From positions 1 through 13,972 of IMG/VR virus record IMGVR_UViG_3300013105_000004: a stretch of DNA of 13,972 nt; one strand, 5' to 3'. The notes beneath the pieces are model-generated. The model had not been told where the DNA came from, did not search any database, and saw only the letters and a list, made by a program, of their open reading frames with translations. Both the position numbers and the translations under genes were made by a program. Of this stretch, positions 7,160-11,589 are shown one piece after another (the first letter of the stretch is position 1; each line of letters opens with the position of its first letter). This DNA comes from a virus. Lineage: Duplodnaviria > Heunggongvirae > Uroviricota > Caudoviricetes.

Positions 7160-7192
7160 AAAAAGCCGCCCCAGCATCGAGGCGGGAGCGGC
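7160..7192 (-). terminator. Putative intrinsic terminator at the end of the tRNA array
   Basis: GCCGCTCC-12 nt-GGGGCGGC stem followed by TTTTT, starting 6 nt after the tRNA-Trp CCA. Confidence 0.6.
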
Positions 7193-7198
7193 ATTTAT

Positions 7199-7275
7199 TG
7201 GCATGCCCGGAATCGAATCGAACGTTCCGCAGTCAGGTTTGGAGCCCAACTCGCCGCCTTGGTACATGCGGGCAT
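7199..7275 (-). tRNA. trnW: tRNA-Trp (CCA)
   Basis: ATGCCCG/CGGGCAT acceptor, loop CTCCAAA, TTCGATT T-loop, encoded CCA. Confidence 0.88.
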
Positions 7276-7431
7276 ATTGTGTTATACTGTCCGTGGGCCT
7301 GCTCTACGGTTTGGCTCGTAGGCAACAAAACTCATTCAATCCAACTGGACGATTGAGCGCTGTTCGATCCTTGTTCCTGAGTTCTTACAGGAGGCTCCCG
7401 GAGGGCTGCATTCGTGCAGCCCTCCGTCATT
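7276..7431 (-). ncRNA. Candidate structured spacer RNA (four hairpins)
   Basis: Perfect 12-bp stem 7399-7410/7415-7426 plus three further stems. No credible ORF. Confidence 0.4.
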
Positions 7432-7506
7432 TGGCACCCAGCCTTGGTAACGCTCCAAGCCACCCACTTTCAAAGAGTGGTATCTGCCCTTGTCGATTTG
7501 CCGGGA
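7432..7506 (-). tRNA. trnQ: tRNA-Gln (TTG), non-canonical T-loop
   Basis: CCACT-CTTTGAA-AGTGG anticodon arm, CTTGG-AGCGTTA-CCAAG T-arm, T1:T72 mismatch, CCA. Confidence 0.85.
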
Positions 7507-7515
7507 ATTGTTCTG

Positions 7516-7589
7516 TGGTACTGAATGATGGTAACGATCCACCGTCTATCGCTTATCAAGCGAGTGCTCTGCCATTGAGCTAATCCAGT
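7516..7589 (-). tRNA. trnI: tRNA-Ile (GAT)
   Basis: ACTGGAT/ATTCAGT acceptor, GCTC/GAGC D-stem, loop TTGATAA, T-loop ATCGTTA, ACCA. Confidence 0.92.
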
Positions 7590-7682
7590 AACGAGCGGCA
7601 GTTATCCTTCACTGCCAGATATGTACCGTTAGTACCATCACGCCGTTCTTCGCTGCGCAGCAAATTTACGGCCAACCTATTT

Positions 7683-7771
7683 TGGCGAAGGGTGAAGGAA
7701 TCGAACCATTACCTGTTCCTCACAAGTACCAAGGATTTCAAGTCCTCTTTGCGTCCTACGCGGCACCCTCC
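7683..7771 (-). tRNA. trnS: tRNA-Ser (TGA)
   Basis: GGAGGGT/ACCCTTC acceptor, G73, loop CTTGAAA, long variable arm, TTCGATT, CCA. Confidence 0.88.
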
Positions 7772-7782
7772 ATATTCAATTT

Positions 7783-7872
7783 TGGCGGAAGACTGACATC
7801 CCGACTGCCATACGCTCGACACGTACCAAAGGCTTAGCAAGCCCCGCCAGCGCCCCGGCTGGTTAATCTTCC
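7783..7872 (-). tRNA. trnS: tRNA-Ser (GCT), non-canonical T-loop
   Basis: GGAAGAT/GTCTTCC acceptor, G73, loop TTGCTAA, long variable arm, T-loop GTCGGGA, CCA. Confidence 0.85.
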
Positions 7873-7877
7873 ATATC

Positions 7878-7950
7878 TGGAACCAAACCATAGAATCGAA
7901 CTATGTATCTGCGGTTCGTAGCCGCTGAGCGGGAATCCACCCGGTCTGGT
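7878..7950 (-). tRNA. trnR: tRNA-Arg (ACG)
   Basis: ACCAGAC/GTTTGGT acceptor, GCGG-CTACGAA-CCGC, CATAG-TTCGATT-CTATG, CCA. Confidence 0.88.
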
Positions 7951-7954
7951 ATTG

Positions 7955-8368
7955 TTACTTGCCTGTACGTTCGTACTGAGCTTTTCGCTGCTCTGGCGTA
8001 CGCTTCTTCTTACTAGCGTACATCGCTTTATAAGCAGCAGTGCATTCATCGCATCTGCAACCTTTCGCGTAGGCGTTCGTCGTTCCGCATTTTGACGGGA
8101 GCCGACTTCTTGACGCTGCATAGTTGCAGACCTTGTGACTGAAGGAGATGTTGTCCATCGAGAAGAACAGGTTTACAGGGTCTTCGCTATCGAGCCAATC
8201 TTCCTTATGTTCAATCGAGAACGTTTCACGACTCATCGGCTTTCCGCACCTGTAGCACGCATTTTGCCCAGTCGTTAGTACAAAGTGGTACAGAATGTCT
8301 TTACCTAGTTTCGCATGCGCTTTACTTGCGCTCATTCCGAGTTGTTTCGATTTCTTGTCTTCAGTCAT
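7955..8368 (-). CDS. HNH endonuclease with zinc-binding CxxC motifs, 137 aa, inserted in the tRNA array
   Basis: CYRC...SIEHKEDW...NISFSHKVCN HNH-type pattern and C-terminal CGT..AY..GCRCDEC motif. Fills the whole Cys-Arg spacer. Confidence 0.78.
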   Translation of the reverse strand: MTEDKKSKQLGMSASKAHAKLGKDILYHFVLTTGQNACYRCGKPMSRETFSIEHKEDWLDSEDPVNLFFSMDNISFSHKVCNYAASRSRLPSKCGTTNAYAKGCRCDECTAAYKAMYASKKKRTPEQRKAQYERTGK

Positions 8369-8374
8369 AATATC

Positions 8375-8450
8375 TGGATACGCTAACCGGAGTTGAACCG
8401 GCCTATCTCGTTTTGCAGACGAGTACCTACATCCGCTCGGCCATAGCGTA
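8375..8450 (-). tRNA. trnC: tRNA-Cys (GCA)
   Basis: TACGCTA/TAGCGTA acceptor, U73, CTCGT-CTGCAAA-ACGAG, TTCAACT, CCA. Confidence 0.93.
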
Positions 8451-8455
8451 CTTTC

Positions 8456-8529
8456 TGGTGGACCTGTGGGTAATCGAAACCCAGCATCGCTCCGTGCAAG
8501 GGAGGACGACGTAACCTACGCTCAAGCCC
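8456..8529 (-). tRNA. trnA: tRNA-Ala (TGC)
   Basis: GGGCTTG/CAGGTCC acceptor with the G3:U70 Ala determinant, loop CTTGCAC, TTCGATT, ACCA. Confidence 0.92.
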
Positions 8530-8579
8530 AATGTTCGTCACGTTAATTTATGTAGACGCTGCGTGTCAGCGCCGTTGGA

Positions 8580-8654
8580 TGGTAGTCAGTGAGTATTTCG
8601 AAAACTCGACCTTCGCCTTGTAAGGGCGCTGCTCTTCCTCTGAGCTAACCGACC
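8580..8654 (-). tRNA. trnV: tRNA-Val (TAC)
   Basis: GGTCGGT/ACTGACT acceptor, GCTC/GAGC D-stem, loop CTTACAA, ACCA. Confidence 0.92.
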
Positions 8655-8660
8655 GTTGTT

Positions 8661-8737
8661 TGGTATTCCCAGCGGGATTCAAACCCGCGTCCAAGGATTG
8701 AAAGTCCGAGTGTCCTAGATCGCTAGACGATGAGAAT
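8661..8737 (-). tRNA. trnE: tRNA-Glu (TTC)
   Basis: ATTCTCA/TGGGAAT acceptor, loop CTTTCAA on a weak stem (3 pairs), GCGGG-TTTGAAT-CCCGC, ACCA. Confidence 0.83.
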
Positions 8738-8738
8738 A

Positions 8739-8830
8739 TGGTGCGTGCAGAAGGAATTGAACCTCCACCGGGTCGTGCCCACCACTGTTTTACAGACAGC
8801 GCCGACTTAACCAATATTCGGCTTACACGC
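8739..8830 (-). tRNA. trnY: tRNA-Tyr (GTA)
   Basis: GCGTGTA/TGCACGC acceptor, CTGT-CTGTAAA-ACAG, long variable arm, TTCAATT, ACCA. Confidence 0.92.
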
Positions 8831-8836
8831 GTTGTT

Positions 8837-8911
8837 TGGTGCGCCCCGATGGTAACGATCCATCCTCGAATGCTTTTCAGGCAAACGCTAATCCATCTCA
8901 GCTAGAGGCAC
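8837..8911 (-). tRNA. trnF: tRNA-Phe (GAA)
   Basis: GTGCCTC/GGGGCGC acceptor, loop CTGAAAA, GATGG-ATCGTTA-CCATC, ACCA. Confidence 0.92.
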
Positions 8912-9084
8912 AAATTCACTTACGCCAAAGCCCGGAGGGGCTAGTCCCGGTATTTCGTGGTTCATGAGGCCACGGTAGCCATGTAGGATAGCAGCCTCAC
9001 CAGAGCTTGGGAATCGAACCATCTGCTATCGTTGTGCGTGAGCGGTACATAACCGGGCCTCACTACTTTGGAGTAAATAAATTT
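8912..9084 (-). ncRNA. Candidate novel 173-nt structured ncRNA between tRNA-His and tRNA-Phe
   Basis: A 19-position terminal helix (9084-9066 with 8930-8912; 2 G.U, 1 mismatch) spans the spacer exactly. Internal helices GATAGCAG/CTGCTATC, CCCGG/CCGGG and CGTGG/CCACG, plus a TTCGATT T-loop. Confidence 0.65.
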
Positions 9085-9158
9085 TGGTGTGACGTTGAGT
9101 TTCGATCTCTATCCACCTGTTTCACAGACAGGTATGCTCCCATTACACTATCGTCACC
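9085..9158 (-). tRNA. trnH: tRNA-His (GTG), genomic G-1 with A73
   Basis: CCTGT-CTGTGAA-ACAGG anticodon arm, GTGACG/CGTCAC acceptor, T-loop ATCGAAA, ACCA. Confidence 0.86.
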
Positions 9159-9163
9159 ACTGT

Positions 9164-9240
9164 TGGTACGGACTGTGGGAGTCGAACCCACAAAATCTTG
9201 CTTCTAAGGCAAGCACGTAAACCAGTTCCGTCAAGTCCGC
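9164..9240 (-). tRNA. trnL: tRNA-Leu (TAG) with short variable loop
   Basis: GCGGACT/AGTCCGT acceptor, CTTGC-CTTAGAA-GCAAG, 5-nt variable loop ATTTT, GTGGG-TTCGACT-CCCAC, ACCA. Confidence 0.9.
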
Positions 9241-9330
9241 ATTGTTCGTGGCCGATTTTCTTTACGGGTACGGACCAACCCGCCTAAGGTAGCGATTCTC
9301 AGGGTACTCTGCCCTGCACGGGCCGAGACT

Positions 9331-9404
9331 TGGAGCAGGATGCCGGGATCGAACCGGCCTCAACGACTTGGAAGGACGCGGCACAGCCACTATACCAATC
9401 CTGC
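9331..9404 (-). tRNA. trnG: tRNA-Gly (TCC)
   Basis: GCAGGAT/ATCCTGC acceptor, U73, loop CTTCCAA, GCCGG-TTCGATC-CCGGC, CCA. Confidence 0.92.
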
Positions 9405-9474
9405 TTTGTTGGTTTCAGGCGCAAGATTCACTTGCCTTGGAACTGCCAGCTTTGTACGCTGACAACCCTACTTC

Positions 9475-9550
9475 TGGCGCGATGTATCGGTTTCGATCCG
9501 ATTACCCTCTGCTCGACAGGCAGACGCTCTCCCGATTGAGCTAACACCGC
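9475..9550 (-). tRNA. trnD: tRNA-Asp (GTC)
   Basis: GCGGTGT/ACATCGC acceptor, G73, TCTGC-CTGTCGA-GCAGA, ATCGG-ATCGAAA-CCGAT, CCA. Confidence 0.93.
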
Positions 9551-9556
9551 ATATTC

Positions 9557-9838
9557 TTACATTAGCTTCCGCATCAGGCGGAAGTTGTTTGCTACCACTA
9601 CGACGTACACTGCGCAAACAGCACCCAGCAGCCACGGGAACGGCAGCAGGAATGTGCAGGCTAGAGCTAGTAGCACAGCCTTCGGTACAGCGAGGCCAGC
9701 AAACGTACCTAGATGCTTAATGAACAACGACATCAGCGGGTTTGCCTCGGAGGCTACGCCTGCATCGATCAAACTTTTTGTAGAGTACCCGTCACACATC
9801 TGAAGCACACAGAGGACTACAAACAAAATGGCTGACAT
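9557..9838 (-). CDS. Small membrane protein, DUF5658-like, 93 aa
   Basis: AAAGGAA RBS, three hydrophobic stretches, and a D..ST.....G...EANP.M motif that I associate with DUF5658. Confidence 0.72.
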   Translation of the reverse strand: MSAILFVVLCVLQMCDGYSTKSLIDAGVASEANPLMSLFIKHLGTFAGLAVPKAVLLALACTFLLPFPWLLGAVCAVYVVVVANNFRLMRKLM

Positions 9839-9853
9839 GCTATTCCTTTATCT

Positions 9854-9932
9854 TGGCTCCGTACCTTGGAATCGAACCAAGCTAAACTCTGCTTAACAGG
9901 CAGGCCCATGCGCCATGCTCGGGTTGTACGAA
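9854..9932 (-). tRNA. trnN: tRNA-Asn (GTT)
   Basis: TTCGTAC/GTACGGA acceptor, G73, CTGC-CTGTTAA-GCAG, CTTGG-TTCGATT-CCAAG, CCA. Confidence 0.92.
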
Positions 9933-10003
9933 ATTGTAAGTTACCTCTGTGTCCAACTCTCGGCCGTATAGGAAGGATGTGGTTGGCGACACTGAGGCGG
10001 TAT

Positions 10004-10076
10004 TGGTTGCGGATGAGGGATTTGAACCCTTCTTTCGGGTTATGAGCCCATTGTGCTACCGTTACACCACACCGCA
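10004..10076 (-). tRNA. trnfM: tRNA-Met (CAT), initiator (fMet)-like
   Basis: GGG-CTCATAA-CCC, with the three consecutive G-C pairs that mark initiators. TTCAAAT T-loop and CCGCAACCA end as in bacterial tRNA-fMet. T1-A72. Confidence 0.87.
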
Positions 10077-10202
10077 ATTGTTCGGAACTACACTTAAAGG
10101 CTGTAGGCACCTGTAATTTCCTGTTTCTTGGTATTACTACCTCAGTGAGAGTAGATTAACTCACGCCGCTTCTGCGATTGCTCTGCTACAGCGACAAGTA
10201 GG

Positions 10203-10231
10203 ATATTACCATACGAAGCACTACTTGTCAA
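10203..10231 (-). promoter_or_regulatory. Sigma70-type internal promoter of the tRNA array
   Basis: TTGACA-N17-TAATAT. A 9-bp inverted repeat GACAAGTAG/CTACTTGTC (10193-10201, 10221-10229) overlaps it. Confidence 0.78.
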
Positions 10232-10255
10232 GCTTTGCGCTAACGCGCTGAATTC

Positions 10256-10330
10256 TGGTCAGGGATGCAAGACTCGAACTTGCGTCTCAGGCATCCAAGG
10301 CCCGCCGATTAACCGCTATCCTAATCCCTG
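10256..10330 (-). tRNA. trnP: tRNA-Pro (TGG)
   Basis: CAGGGAT/ATCCCTG acceptor, CGGGC-CTTGGAT-GCCTG, GCAAG-TTCGAGT-CTTGC, ACCA. Confidence 0.93.
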
Positions 10331-10419
10331 AAAAGAGTTTAACGACATACGTTTGTTGGTCGGGACATTCTCGGATTCCGCTACGCCAGTTCATCACGAG
10401 TCTCAACTGGAAAGCGTTC

Positions 10420-10503
10420 TGGTGCCGCCTGTAGGATTTGAACCTACGTGGATTTCTCGCCGGGTTACAAAGCCGGTGCTTTCGACCTCTCAGCCAAAGC
10501 GGC
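10420..10503 (-). tRNA. trnT: tRNA-Thr (TGT) with an unusually long variable region
   Basis: GCCGCTT/AGGCGGC acceptor (G1-C72, C2-G71), loop TTTGTAA with C31.C39 mismatch, 12-nt variable region, GTAGG-TTCAAAT-CCTAC, ACCA. Confidence 0.82.
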
Positions 10504-10815
10504 AAATTCGTCCCGGTTACACCCTCCGGGGCTACACTTAAAGCCGGTAGCTGCCTAGCTGTTAGTCCCGCTTACTTTTACGGGGACGCCGAAGCGCCAG
10601 CGGGCAACCAACCCAAGGAGAACATCGGAAGAGTAGTCGCCTACGACAACACTGGAGCAATCCGTAGCGTGTCGTTTCGGGGACAGGTGTACGCCGGGAG
10701 AACATGCAACGAGTTCTCCTTCGAGATATGGATCAACCTCCTTTCGGAATTGAAACAGTGGCGACTACTCTAATTCTGCAACCAGCGGTTTGTTCTGGAT
10801 GCTTTATCTGTTACG
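10504..10815 (-). ncRNA. Candidate novel ~310-nt structured RNA/leader between the promoter and tRNA-Thr
   Basis: Perfect 12-bp long-range helix (10760-10771/10630-10641), several nested hairpins, and GAAA and cUUCGg tetraloops on the minus strand. No convincing ORF. Confidence 0.6.
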
Positions 10816-10822
10816 TACTGAG

Positions 10823-10851
10823 AGTATACAGTACGCAGCTCTACTTGTCAA
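10823..10851 (-). promoter_or_regulatory. Sigma70-type promoter at the head of the ncRNA/tRNA array
   Basis: TTGACA-N17-TATACT with TG before the -10, immediately after the HNH stop codon. Confidence 0.82.
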
Positions 10852-10854
10852 GTT

Positions 10855-11589
10855 TTACGCACTTACGTGGTTCCACGTGATACCCTTCGCAATGCTGTAC
10901 ACAGTGTAATACTTAAAACCTGTAGCCTTTGCTACCTCGCCGGGTGTTGCACCTGTCGCGAGTGCTTGCTTGATCCTGCGGGCATCGTCGTTTGTGAGCA
11001 CAGCATTCTTACGCTGCTCTCCGAGCTTGTGAAGCCCGTTTTCAATCGAATGCGCAACGTTGTCTTTGTAATCGAGCCATTCCAGATTGCTTACGTTGTT
11101 GTTGAGCTTGTTTCCGTCCTTGTGGTTCACTGTCGGCAGGTCATCCGGGTTTGGAATGAAGGCTGTAGCAACGATGCGGTGAATGTACACTTTCTTGTTC
11201 CCGACCTTGTTCAATGCCAAGTACCCAGAGCTGATGATACCCGGACGAAGCCAGCGACAGTGCATGTGGGACCACACCTTGCCATCCCGTGTCACGGACC
11301 ACGCGCCATTAGATTCTAGCACCGGGCGGGATTCAAGCGCTTCGAACTCCGCTATACGCTCCTTGCGCGCGATCTTCTTCTGCTCTGCCGCATCAACAAC
11401 TTCTTTACCAACTTTAGCGACTCGCTTCTCACGCTTCAGGGTCTTACGTACGAGACGAAGTTGCTCTACGATATCATCCCGTCCGCTTGCTGCGTACGTT
11501 TTGATAGCAATGTGAAGGGCTTGACGCGAAACGCCTTTGGCCCGTTCTACAGCTTCGTCCAAGGTTAATTCACTCCAGCTCTTCGCCAT
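10855..11589 (-). CDS. HNH homing endonuclease (I-HmuI-like) with N-terminal helical extension and C-terminal HTH-like region, 244 aa
   Basis: WSVTRDGKVWS (NUMOD4-like), YIHRIVATAFIPNPDDLPTVNHKDGNKLNNNVSNLEW canonical HNH motif, AAGGAG RBS. Confidence 0.92.
   Translation of the reverse strand: MAKSWSELTLDEAVERAKGVSRQALHIAIKTYAASGRDDIVEQLRLVRKTLKREKRVAKVGKEVVDAAEQKKIARKERIAEFEALESRPVLESNGAWSVTRDGKVWSHMHCRWLRPGIISSGYLALNKVGNKKVYIHRIVATAFIPNPDDLPTVNHKDGNKLNNNVSNLEWLDYKDNVAHSIENGLHKLGEQRKNAVLTNDDARRIKQALATGATPGEVAKATGFKYYTVYSIAKGITWNHVSA

What the first reader, a model, noticed from the sequence alone, without database searches (positions are those of the whole stretch)
7199..10815. tRNA array as a processing scaffold for several unknown small RNAs
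At least six non-coding spacers (7276-7431, 7590-7682, 8912-9084, 9241-9330, 9933-10003, 10504-10815) are hairpin-rich, while most other inter-tRNA gaps are only 1-11 nt. RNase P and tRNA 3' processing would release them as discrete RNAs. Phage tRNA clusters are known to host stable non-tRNA RNAs (T4 RNA C/D, GOLLD, ROOL, Y-RNA-like YrlA), but I recognise none of these sequences. Together they may be an undescribed phage ncRNA repertoire acting on host translation (inference).
Basis: partly seen in the sequence, partly recalled or inferred. Interest (0 to 1): 0.7.

Follow-up and report, generated by a model that had tools for sequence, protein, structure and literature searches.

The report
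Unknown RNA genes among phage tRNAs
The gaps between this phage's transfer-RNA genes hold at least six conserved, folded RNAs found in no RNA catalogue searched, and the first carries a near-perfect match to the ribosome's mRNA-binding tail without a conserved gene behind it, which suggests a phage RNA that binds host ribosomes.

Summary
Largely confirmed. The minus-strand operon of this 90.8-kb uncultured phage has 20 tRNAs, two sigma70 promoters and a terminator. Comparison with 22 related arrays shows structured RNA modules with compensatory changes and no Rfam match:
- leader RNA A (10630-10771) and leader module B
- pseudoknot D
- long-stem, T-loop RNA E
- module F.
G and the Met-Asn hairpin rest on only 1-2 homologues. 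C, E and F move between tRNA neighbours, as separate genes would.

A carries a complement of the 16S rRNA 3' tail (15 bp here) in 21 of 22 arrays, in two very different scaffolds. It is the strongest such site in the genome (-25 vs -17 kcal/mol), lies in a weak hairpin and precedes no conserved ORF. The same core recurs in PAK_P1/PAK_P3 arrays and, followed by AUCU and a pseudoknot, in dozens of unrelated phage contigs.

Corrections: 10504-10815 is the 5' leader, not a spacer; RNase III probably also excises E. Release as stable RNAs and any effect on translation are inferred; no expression data were available. First-stage notes flagged this leader in four other genomes.

The parts
10823..10851 (-). 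sigma70-type promoter P1 of the tRNA operon
   Evidence: 11/12 consensus match; TTGACA at the same place in relatives
10630..10771 (-). RNA A: 12-bp closing stem enclosing a weak GAAA-capped hairpin with the 16S-tail complement and two covarying arms with invariant UUGC loops
   Evidence: fold z -5.15; 13 of 35 pairs with two-sided change, 0/500 shuffles; CM hits only within the clade
10730..10745 (-). extended complement of the 16S rRNA 3' tail (15 bp, one bulged U), followed by AUCUC and no start codon
   Evidence: strongest such site in the 90.8-kb genome; present in 21 of 22 arrays
10566..10622 (-). module B: anti-SD-like UUCUCCUUG, two hairpins, and a third hairpin with an A...GUAA loop
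   Evidence: UUCUCCUUG in 21 of 22 arrays; stem covariation
10510..10550 (-). extra hairpins before tRNA-Thr, including a second GUAA-loop hairpin
   Evidence: sequence; a similar duplication in G002
10331..10362 (-). module H: conserved 32-nt element just 5' of tRNA-Pro
   Evidence: 13 arrays; sequence conservation only, little covariation
10203..10231 (-). internal sigma70-type promoter P2
   Evidence: conserved in relatives
10113..10184 (-).
   Evidence: 16 genomes, 14 distinct stem-2 versions; cognate -6.1 vs non-cognate -1.5 kcal/mol, 0 of 100000 permutations
9933..10003 (-). Met-Asn interrupted hairpin, a variable cassette
   Evidence: z about -2.1; one homologue, L506, with compensatory changes
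9557..9838 (-). ORF for a DUF5658 membrane protein inside the array
9405..9474 (-). Asp-Gly structured insert, no sequence homologue found
9250..9282 (-). module D: H-type pseudoknot ending 9 nt before tRNA-Leu(UAG)
   Evidence: 8 genomes; P=0.033 on 5 distinct versions
8912..9084 (-). RNA E: 19-bp closing stem, internal tRNA T-loop, two covarying hairpins, invariant GCUA/UAGC pseudoknot; mature form predicted at about 8924-9070
   Evidence: 15 of 31 pairs with two-sided change, 0/500 shuffles; 11-12 genomes; closing stem like that of T5 RNAIV
7955..8368 (-). HNH endonuclease ORF inside the array
   Evidence: PHROG 23251
7622..7680 (-). module F: three-stem RNA always 5' of tRNA-Ile, followed by a variable hairpin
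   Evidence: 18 arrays; covariation in three stems, P=0.04, 0.0014, 0.006
7279..7431 (-). module G: Gln-Trp multi-stem insert
   Evidence: z -5.25; homologues only in L001 and L009
7199..10503 (-). array of 20 tRNA genes (Thr to Trp)
7166..7185 (-). intrinsic terminator

Best explanation
The operon is a mixed tRNA and small-RNA gene cassette read by host sigma70 polymerase.

SHOWN: the gaps carry conserved RNA folds (A, B, C, D, E, F; G and the Met-Asn hairpin weakly) that are gained, lost and shuffled as whole modules.

INFERRED (about 0.7): host tRNA processing (RNase P at tRNA 5' ends, 3' trimming to the encoded CCA) and RNase III on long closing stems such as E's free several of them as stable RNAs. 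Closing stems and 3' pseudoknots would protect them from exonucleases.

INFERRED (about 0.7): RNA A pairs with the 16S 3' tail. Its weak, wobble-rich hairpin (-4 to -9 kcal/mol) would be opened by the tail (-20 to -23 kcal/mol). With no usable start codon the bound 30S would be parked rather than initiate.

Most likely purpose: to hold small subunits and shift translation during infection; shielding the precursor in cis is the main rival. E most likely works as a tRNA-elbow mimic or decoy. C, D and F have no assignable activity yet.
For: - Covariation: A 13/35 pairs and E 15/31 pairs, 0/500 shuffles each; C pseudoknot, B hairpin and E stems 0-0.0006 in strand-swap permutations.
- Mobility: E lies between His-Phe or Glu-Val; C between Pro-Met, Ala-Gly or Pro-Cys; F after Ser, Arg or His.
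- 16S complement kept in 21 of 22 arrays although long and short scaffolds differ and the bulged U moves; L505 has an unbroken match.
- Same core in the tRNA leader of PAK_P3 and in the PAK_P1 array.
- In an unselected sample of 102 viral extended-SD sites, 21 have AUCU at the start-codon position (p 2e-12) with more downstream structure than the AUG class (p 0.017).
- Precedent: T5 has eight annotated non-tRNA RNAs in its tRNA region, two with 2-nt 3' overhangs in closing stems; PAK_P3 ncRNA2 is a processed, Northern-confirmed spacer RNA (bioRxiv 10.1101/2023.10.13.562163).
Against: - No RNA data for this phage; host unknown, so the exact 16S tail is assumed (the UUUC ending is common).
- The hairpin hiding the SD shows only one-sided changes (helix 2; P=0.2).
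- L502 lacks the leader SD and L496 lacks B, so neither is universal.
- Short-scaffold relatives have UUG/GUG/AUG 2-6 nt after the motif.
- B, D and F keep a fixed downstream tRNA, which fits cis elements.
- Several genomes are close kin (L003/4/5/7), so counts overstate independence.
- Structures were drawn from these same sequences.
Confidence: 0.58

Rival explanations
1. The modules are cis-acting parts of the long untranslated precursor. A is a STAB-SD-like ribosome parking site that blocks decay or Rho loading; pseudoknots and hairpins just 5' of tRNAs guide or pace processing; the released pieces are by-products.
For: A is always first after the promoter; B, D, F and H keep the same downstream tRNA; pseudoknots usually end 5-10 nt before a tRNA; the widespread SD-AUCU-pseudoknot often sits right after a stop codon (17 of 44 within -9..+6 nt). 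STAB-SD: Agaisse and Lereclus 1996, seen only as a citation in PMC5737220.
Against: C and E change neighbours; many tRNAs in the same arrays need only 1-11 nt linkers; the SD is folded away rather than open; PAK_P1 carries it mid-array; conserved interior loops exceed what a roadblock needs.
Confidence: 0.26
2. The 16S complement is a true ribosome-binding site for a tiny peptide with a near-cognate start (AUC or UUG), that is a uORF-type sensor.
For: AUC or UUG lies at start-codon spacing; short-scaffold relatives could encode 4-14 codon peptides.
Against: Long-scaffold genomes have no AUG/GUG/UUG in range; indels in the next arm break the frame; no peptide is conserved; the UUG lies in a stem.
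Confidence: 0.06
3. The spacers are Y RNAs or Y-RNA-like partners of Ro60, or decayed tRNAs.
For: E has a long terminal stem and a T-loop; five relatives carry Ro60; the phage has RtcB.
Against: [quoted passage not shown]
Confidence: 0.05
4. One or more modules are self-cleaving ribozymes that help cut the precursor, like theta ribozymes.
For: Compact pseudoknots with invariant single-stranded nucleotides next to tRNAs; RtcB present; theta ribozymes set the precedent (PMC10879173).
Against: No hammerhead, pistol or hairpin core in the spacers, and the loose HDV and twister pattern hits do not fit those topologies on inspection; no Rfam ribozyme hit; the pseudoknots lie 5' of tRNAs, not at their 3' ends; the tRNAs encode CCA.
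Confidence: 0.04
5. The folds are neutral leftovers or chance hairpins.
For: Three spacers do not fold better than shuffles as single sequences; Asp-Gly and Val-Ala have no homologue.
Against: Compensatory changes across up to 21 genomes.
Confidence: 0.01

Closest known systems
T5 stable RNAs RNAI, RNAIII, RNAIV, RNA1, RNA2, RNA2H (NC_005859 annotation) and T4 band C/D RNAs
   Same: Non-tRNA RNAs inside a phage tRNA cluster, function unknown, several with long closing stems. The outer stem of E resembles the T5 RNAIV precursor stem.
   Different: No shared interior sequence cores. The CM hit to RNAIV covers the closing stem only (24 bits, lower than antisense self-hits at 28).
PAK_P3 sRNA2/ncRNA2 (PMC4933390; bioRxiv 10.1101/2023.10.13.562163)
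   Same: Processed, abundant, late RNA from a tRNA spacer of a related phage lineage, with a T-loop.
   Different: It ends in a T-arm and acceptor-like stem; in E the T-loop is internal. No CM hit. The unannotated SD-AUCUC-pseudoknot upstream of PAK_P3 tRNA-Asn is the piece that resembles A.
YrlA/YrlB bacterial Y RNAs (Rfam RF02553; PMC4201824)
   Same: Terminal stem plus T-loop module (E); Ro60 present in some relatives.
   Different: No Ro-binding motif, no Ro60 in this genome, no Rfam hit, different helix order.
STAB-SD elements (Bacillus thuringiensis cry3A; from memory, citation in PMC5737220)
   Same: Strong SD without a start codon near a transcript 5' end.
   Different: Here the match extends to 15 bp, is folded into a conserved multi-stem RNA and leads a tRNA operon, not an mRNA.
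Theta (minimal HDV-like) ribozymes (PMC10879173)
   Same: Pseudoknotted RNAs next to phage tRNAs.
   Different: Theta ribozymes start at the tRNA 3' end with HDV topology; these pseudoknots are simple H-type and lie 5' of tRNAs.
GOLLD and ROOL RNAs
   Same: Phage tRNA-array context.
   Different: Modules here are 30-170 nt; no Rfam hit.

Membership tests
YrlA/Y RNA | Ro60 (TROVE) gene within 4 kb on the same strand | tested here: not met
   no TROVE in the complete genome
YrlA/Y RNA | GNCGAAN0-1G motif near the 5' end | tested here: not met
   absent from E (alignment; definition)
YrlA/Y RNA | T stem-loop | tested here: met
   GGUUCGANUCC in all 11 E copies
YrlA/Y RNA | RF02553 score at the gathering threshold | tested here: not met
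   only a 20-bit hit on tRNAs; one search hits a different RNA in G002
T5 stable RNAs (RNAI-IV, RNA1-3, RNA2H) | sequence or structure homology | tested here: inconclusive
   closing stem of E matches RNAIV, interior does not
Phage tRNA-cluster stable RNAs (kind) | accumulates as a discrete RNA in infected cells | not testable with these tools
Phage tRNA-cluster stable RNAs (kind) | self-contained conserved fold between tRNA genes | tested here: met
Known self-cleaving ribozymes (hammerhead, HDV/theta, twister, pistol, hairpin, hatchet) | catalytic core and topology | tested here: not met
   Rfam and rough pattern scan (hatchet by Rfam only)
tmRNA | tag-peptide ORF and tRNA-like domain | tested here: not met
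   ARAGORN; no tag pattern in the array
GOLLD/ROOL | large RNA with an Rfam match | tested here: not met
STAB-SD | strong SD with no start codon near the 5' end | tested here: met
   (met in this genome)
STAB-SD | 30S binding stabilises downstream RNA | not testable with these tools
   needs toeprinting and half-life assays

The most novel reading that the evidence does not exclude
RNA A is a trans-acting phage RNA that captures host 30S subunits, or the maturing 16S tail, through a 15-bp duplex. It is one branch of an unrecognised, widespread phage element (extended SD, AUCU, pseudoknot). The operon would then deliver a whole set of translation-directed RNAs: tRNAs, a ribosome decoy, an anti-SD-bearing RNA and a tRNA-elbow decoy.
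Probability: 0.28. Interest if true: 0.88.

Novelty: new variant of a known kind. Interest (0 to 1): 0.7.

Why it matters
Non-tRNA RNAs in phage tRNA clusters have been known since the T4 work of the 1970s without an assigned function. This clade supplies six new covariation-backed families and, for one of them, a direct sequence clue to a target: the 16S tail. The same core sits in the tRNA arrays of cultured phages PAK_P1 and PAK_P3, so the hypothesis can be tested now. A phage RNA that parks ribosomes would be a new route of translational takeover; even the cis reading would explain how long untranslated phage operons survive decay.

Tried and rejected
- blastn of the array and of the leader against 50,697 phage records: only tRNA hits or chance.
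- CMs for A and C in PAK_P1, PAK_P3, T5, phiK7A1, Mushroom and X1: no hit; CM for E: only the T5 stem hit.
- Pattern scan for E outside the clade: chance hits only.
- Metagenome scan with the terminase added no array.
- Long-range pairing of the A arm loop with the 5' end of C (8 bp here): rejected, it does not co-vary or co-occur across genomes. B loop with H: inconclusive for the same reason.
- Anti-SD reading of the Met-Asn loop: rejected, not kept in L506.
- Hammerhead or hairpin-ribozyme readings of C and E: cores incomplete.
- Literature searches for the SD motif found no relevant paper. Supplements of Fremin 2023 and Weinberg 2017 were not held, so a listing among bulk candidates is not excluded.
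- Host not identified.
Full report
Setting. The window is the first 13,972 bases of a complete 90,837-bp virus record. Terminase and portal are about 40% identical to those of Pakpunavirus-type Pseudomonas phages, so this is an uncultured clade of unknown host. The minus strand from 10816 to 7166 is one operon: promoter P1 at 10851-10823, an internal promoter at 10231-10203 and a terminator at 7185-7166. It holds 20 tRNAs, an HNH gene and a DUF5658 gene. The genome also encodes RtcB but no Ro60.

Observation. The six segments are there. Single-sequence folding is clearly above shuffles for Gln-Trp, leader A and His-Phe, borderline for Met-Asn and Ser-Ile, and not above chance for Gly-Leu and leader B. 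Rfam finds only tRNAs.

Homologues. Terminase, motif and RtcB searches gave 22 arrays with a leader, plus fragments. The order of tRNAs is largely kept while the gap contents are exchanged as modules. Some genomes are near-identical, so tests used distinct sequences only.

Module A (10630-10771). A closing stem encloses a GAAA-capped hairpin and two arms. On nine sequences 92% of cells pair and 13 of 35 pairs change on both sides; none of 500 shuffles reaches this. The hairpin contains GAAAGGAGGUUGAUCC, complementary to the 16S tail over 15 bp with one bulged U. It is the best such site in the genome, -25.0 against -17.2 kcal/mol for the next. A complement of -21.6 to -28.5 kcal/mol is present in 21 of 22 leaders, including a short scaffold that the A model does not detect. 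The bulge moves between lineages and L505 has an unbroken match, which is what selection for pairing, rather than shared ancestry alone, predicts. The hairpin hiding it is weak (-3.9 to -8.9 kcal/mol) and shows only one-sided changes. No start codon follows in the long form and no peptide is conserved.

Wider family. The same core followed by AUCUC lies upstream of tRNA-Asn behind a promoter in PAK_P3 and mid-array in PAK_P1, and a variant lies in Felixounavirus Mushroom. A pattern scan returned more than 100 viral contigs. In 48 non-coding hits a pseudoknot starts right after AUCU far more often than in shuffles (p 1e-9), and 17 of 44 sit within -9 to +6 nt of a stop codon. Because AUCUC was part of that pattern, I drew an unselected sample of extended-SD sites: 21 of 102 have AUCU 1-5 nt downstream (p 2e-12), with more structure behind them than behind AUG sites (p 0.017). 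Rfam has no family for it and I found no paper. Whether A and this element share ancestry or only a target is not settled; the short scaffold lacks AUCU.

Module B (10566-10622). An anti-SD-like UUCUCCUUG is kept in 21 of 22 leaders, followed by hairpins, the last with an A...GUAA loop and freely covarying stems. L496 has A without B and L502 has B without the leader SD, so the two are separable even though they could pair.

It starts just behind promoter P2 and ends in an H-type pseudoknot whose second stem differs in 14 versions yet pairs in each (0 of 100,000 permutations). Module D (9250-9282) is another H-type pseudoknot 9 nt before tRNA-Leu (8 genomes; P=0.033). Module F (7622-7680) is in 18 arrays, always before tRNA-Ile, with covariation in three stems. 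H (10331-10362) is conserved in 13 arrays by sequence.

Module E (8912-9084). A 19-bp closing stem encloses a T-loop hairpin, two covarying hairpins and an invariant 4-bp pseudoknot; 15 of 31 pairs change on both sides. It sits between His-Phe or Glu-Val. Its outer stem aligns with the T5 RNAIV precursor stem. T5 RNAIII and RNA2H have annotated ends with 2-nt 3' overhangs inside such stems, the RNase III signature (established knowledge), so RNase III excision at about 9070/8924 is inferred. E is not YrlA: there is no Ro-binding motif and no co-occurrence with Ro60, and a separate YrlA-like RNA flanks Ro60 in G002.

Weaker cases. G (7279-7431) folds strongly but has two homologues. The Met-Asn hairpin has one, with compensatory changes. 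The Asp-Gly and Val-Ala inserts have none.

Mechanism. Shown: conserved folds, modular exchange, and selection for complementarity to the 16S tail. Inferred: release as stable RNAs, by analogy with T5 and with the Northern-confirmed PAK_P3 ncRNA2; opening of the A hairpin by the 16S tail; a parked, non-initiating 30S. Whether this acts in trans on host translation or in cis to protect the precursor cannot be decided from sequence.

Verdict. A real, uncatalogued set of RNA families of a known but unexplained kind, with one member giving a testable target. First-stage notes of this scan had flagged the same leader in other genomes; they are unchecked and were not counted as evidence. Interest 0.7.

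Noticed in passing
L056-L133, L363-L474 (IMG/VR); L255, L260, L285, L320 (Streptococcus genomes): Widespread uncatalogued element: extended SD, 0-5 nt, AUCU, then an H-type pseudoknot or hairpin, often right after the stop codon of holin-like and other phage genes. It deserves its own study.
   Followed up: partly
L476:4314-4972 (Salmonella phage Mushroom, Felixounavirus): Unannotated tmRNA-tag-like reading frame (ANDNVFLAVA*) in the tRNA array, possibly a two-piece tmRNA, plus a variant of the SD-AUCUC motif.
   Followed up: no
L495:2006-3388, L496:2977-4359, G002, G003, G025: Ro60/TROVE gene in five relatives, inside the tRNA array where the context was read, with repeated Y-RNA-like elements upstream; YrlA hit at L492:2317-2439 (43 bits).
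   Followed up: partly
genome 15079-16287, 33465-34622, 14069-14608, 59861-62570: The phage encodes RtcB and an HD-domain protein (Pfam-confirmed); by N-terminal sequence only, also an Rnl2-like RNA ligase and NAD-salvage-like genes.
   Followed up: partly
window 10566-10590 and 10510-10527: B hairpin loops end in NGUAA, like a tRNA-Thr anticodon plus A37-A38, next to tRNA-Thr; a possible ThrRS or t6A-enzyme decoy (speculation).
   Followed up: no
window 10083-10106, 10527-10550, 10902-10925: Three copies of a CUAC..UUUAAGU motif, two of them as small hairpins before tRNAs; the only copies in the genome.
   Followed up: partly
L004, L006, L053, L163, L237, L495-L500 spacers: Relatives carry many further structured cassettes absent from this window (tRNA-like RNAs with T-loops, more pseudoknots, a CCCGACAAGGA hairpin also seen in PAK_P1).
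   Followed up: no
L492 Gln-Ser spacer (G002): A second, SD-degenerate copy of the GUGAUCC-AUCUC-stem motif overlaps the stop codon of a 10-codon ORF.
   Followed up: no
window 7199-7275, 7432-7506, 7783-7872, 8456-8529: Four non-canonical tRNAs (Trp, Gln, Ser-GCT, Ala) missed by default ARAGORN and Rfam but conserved in relatives.
   Followed up: partly
window 10855-11589: HNH_3 endonuclease gene directly upstream of promoter P1.
   Followed up: no
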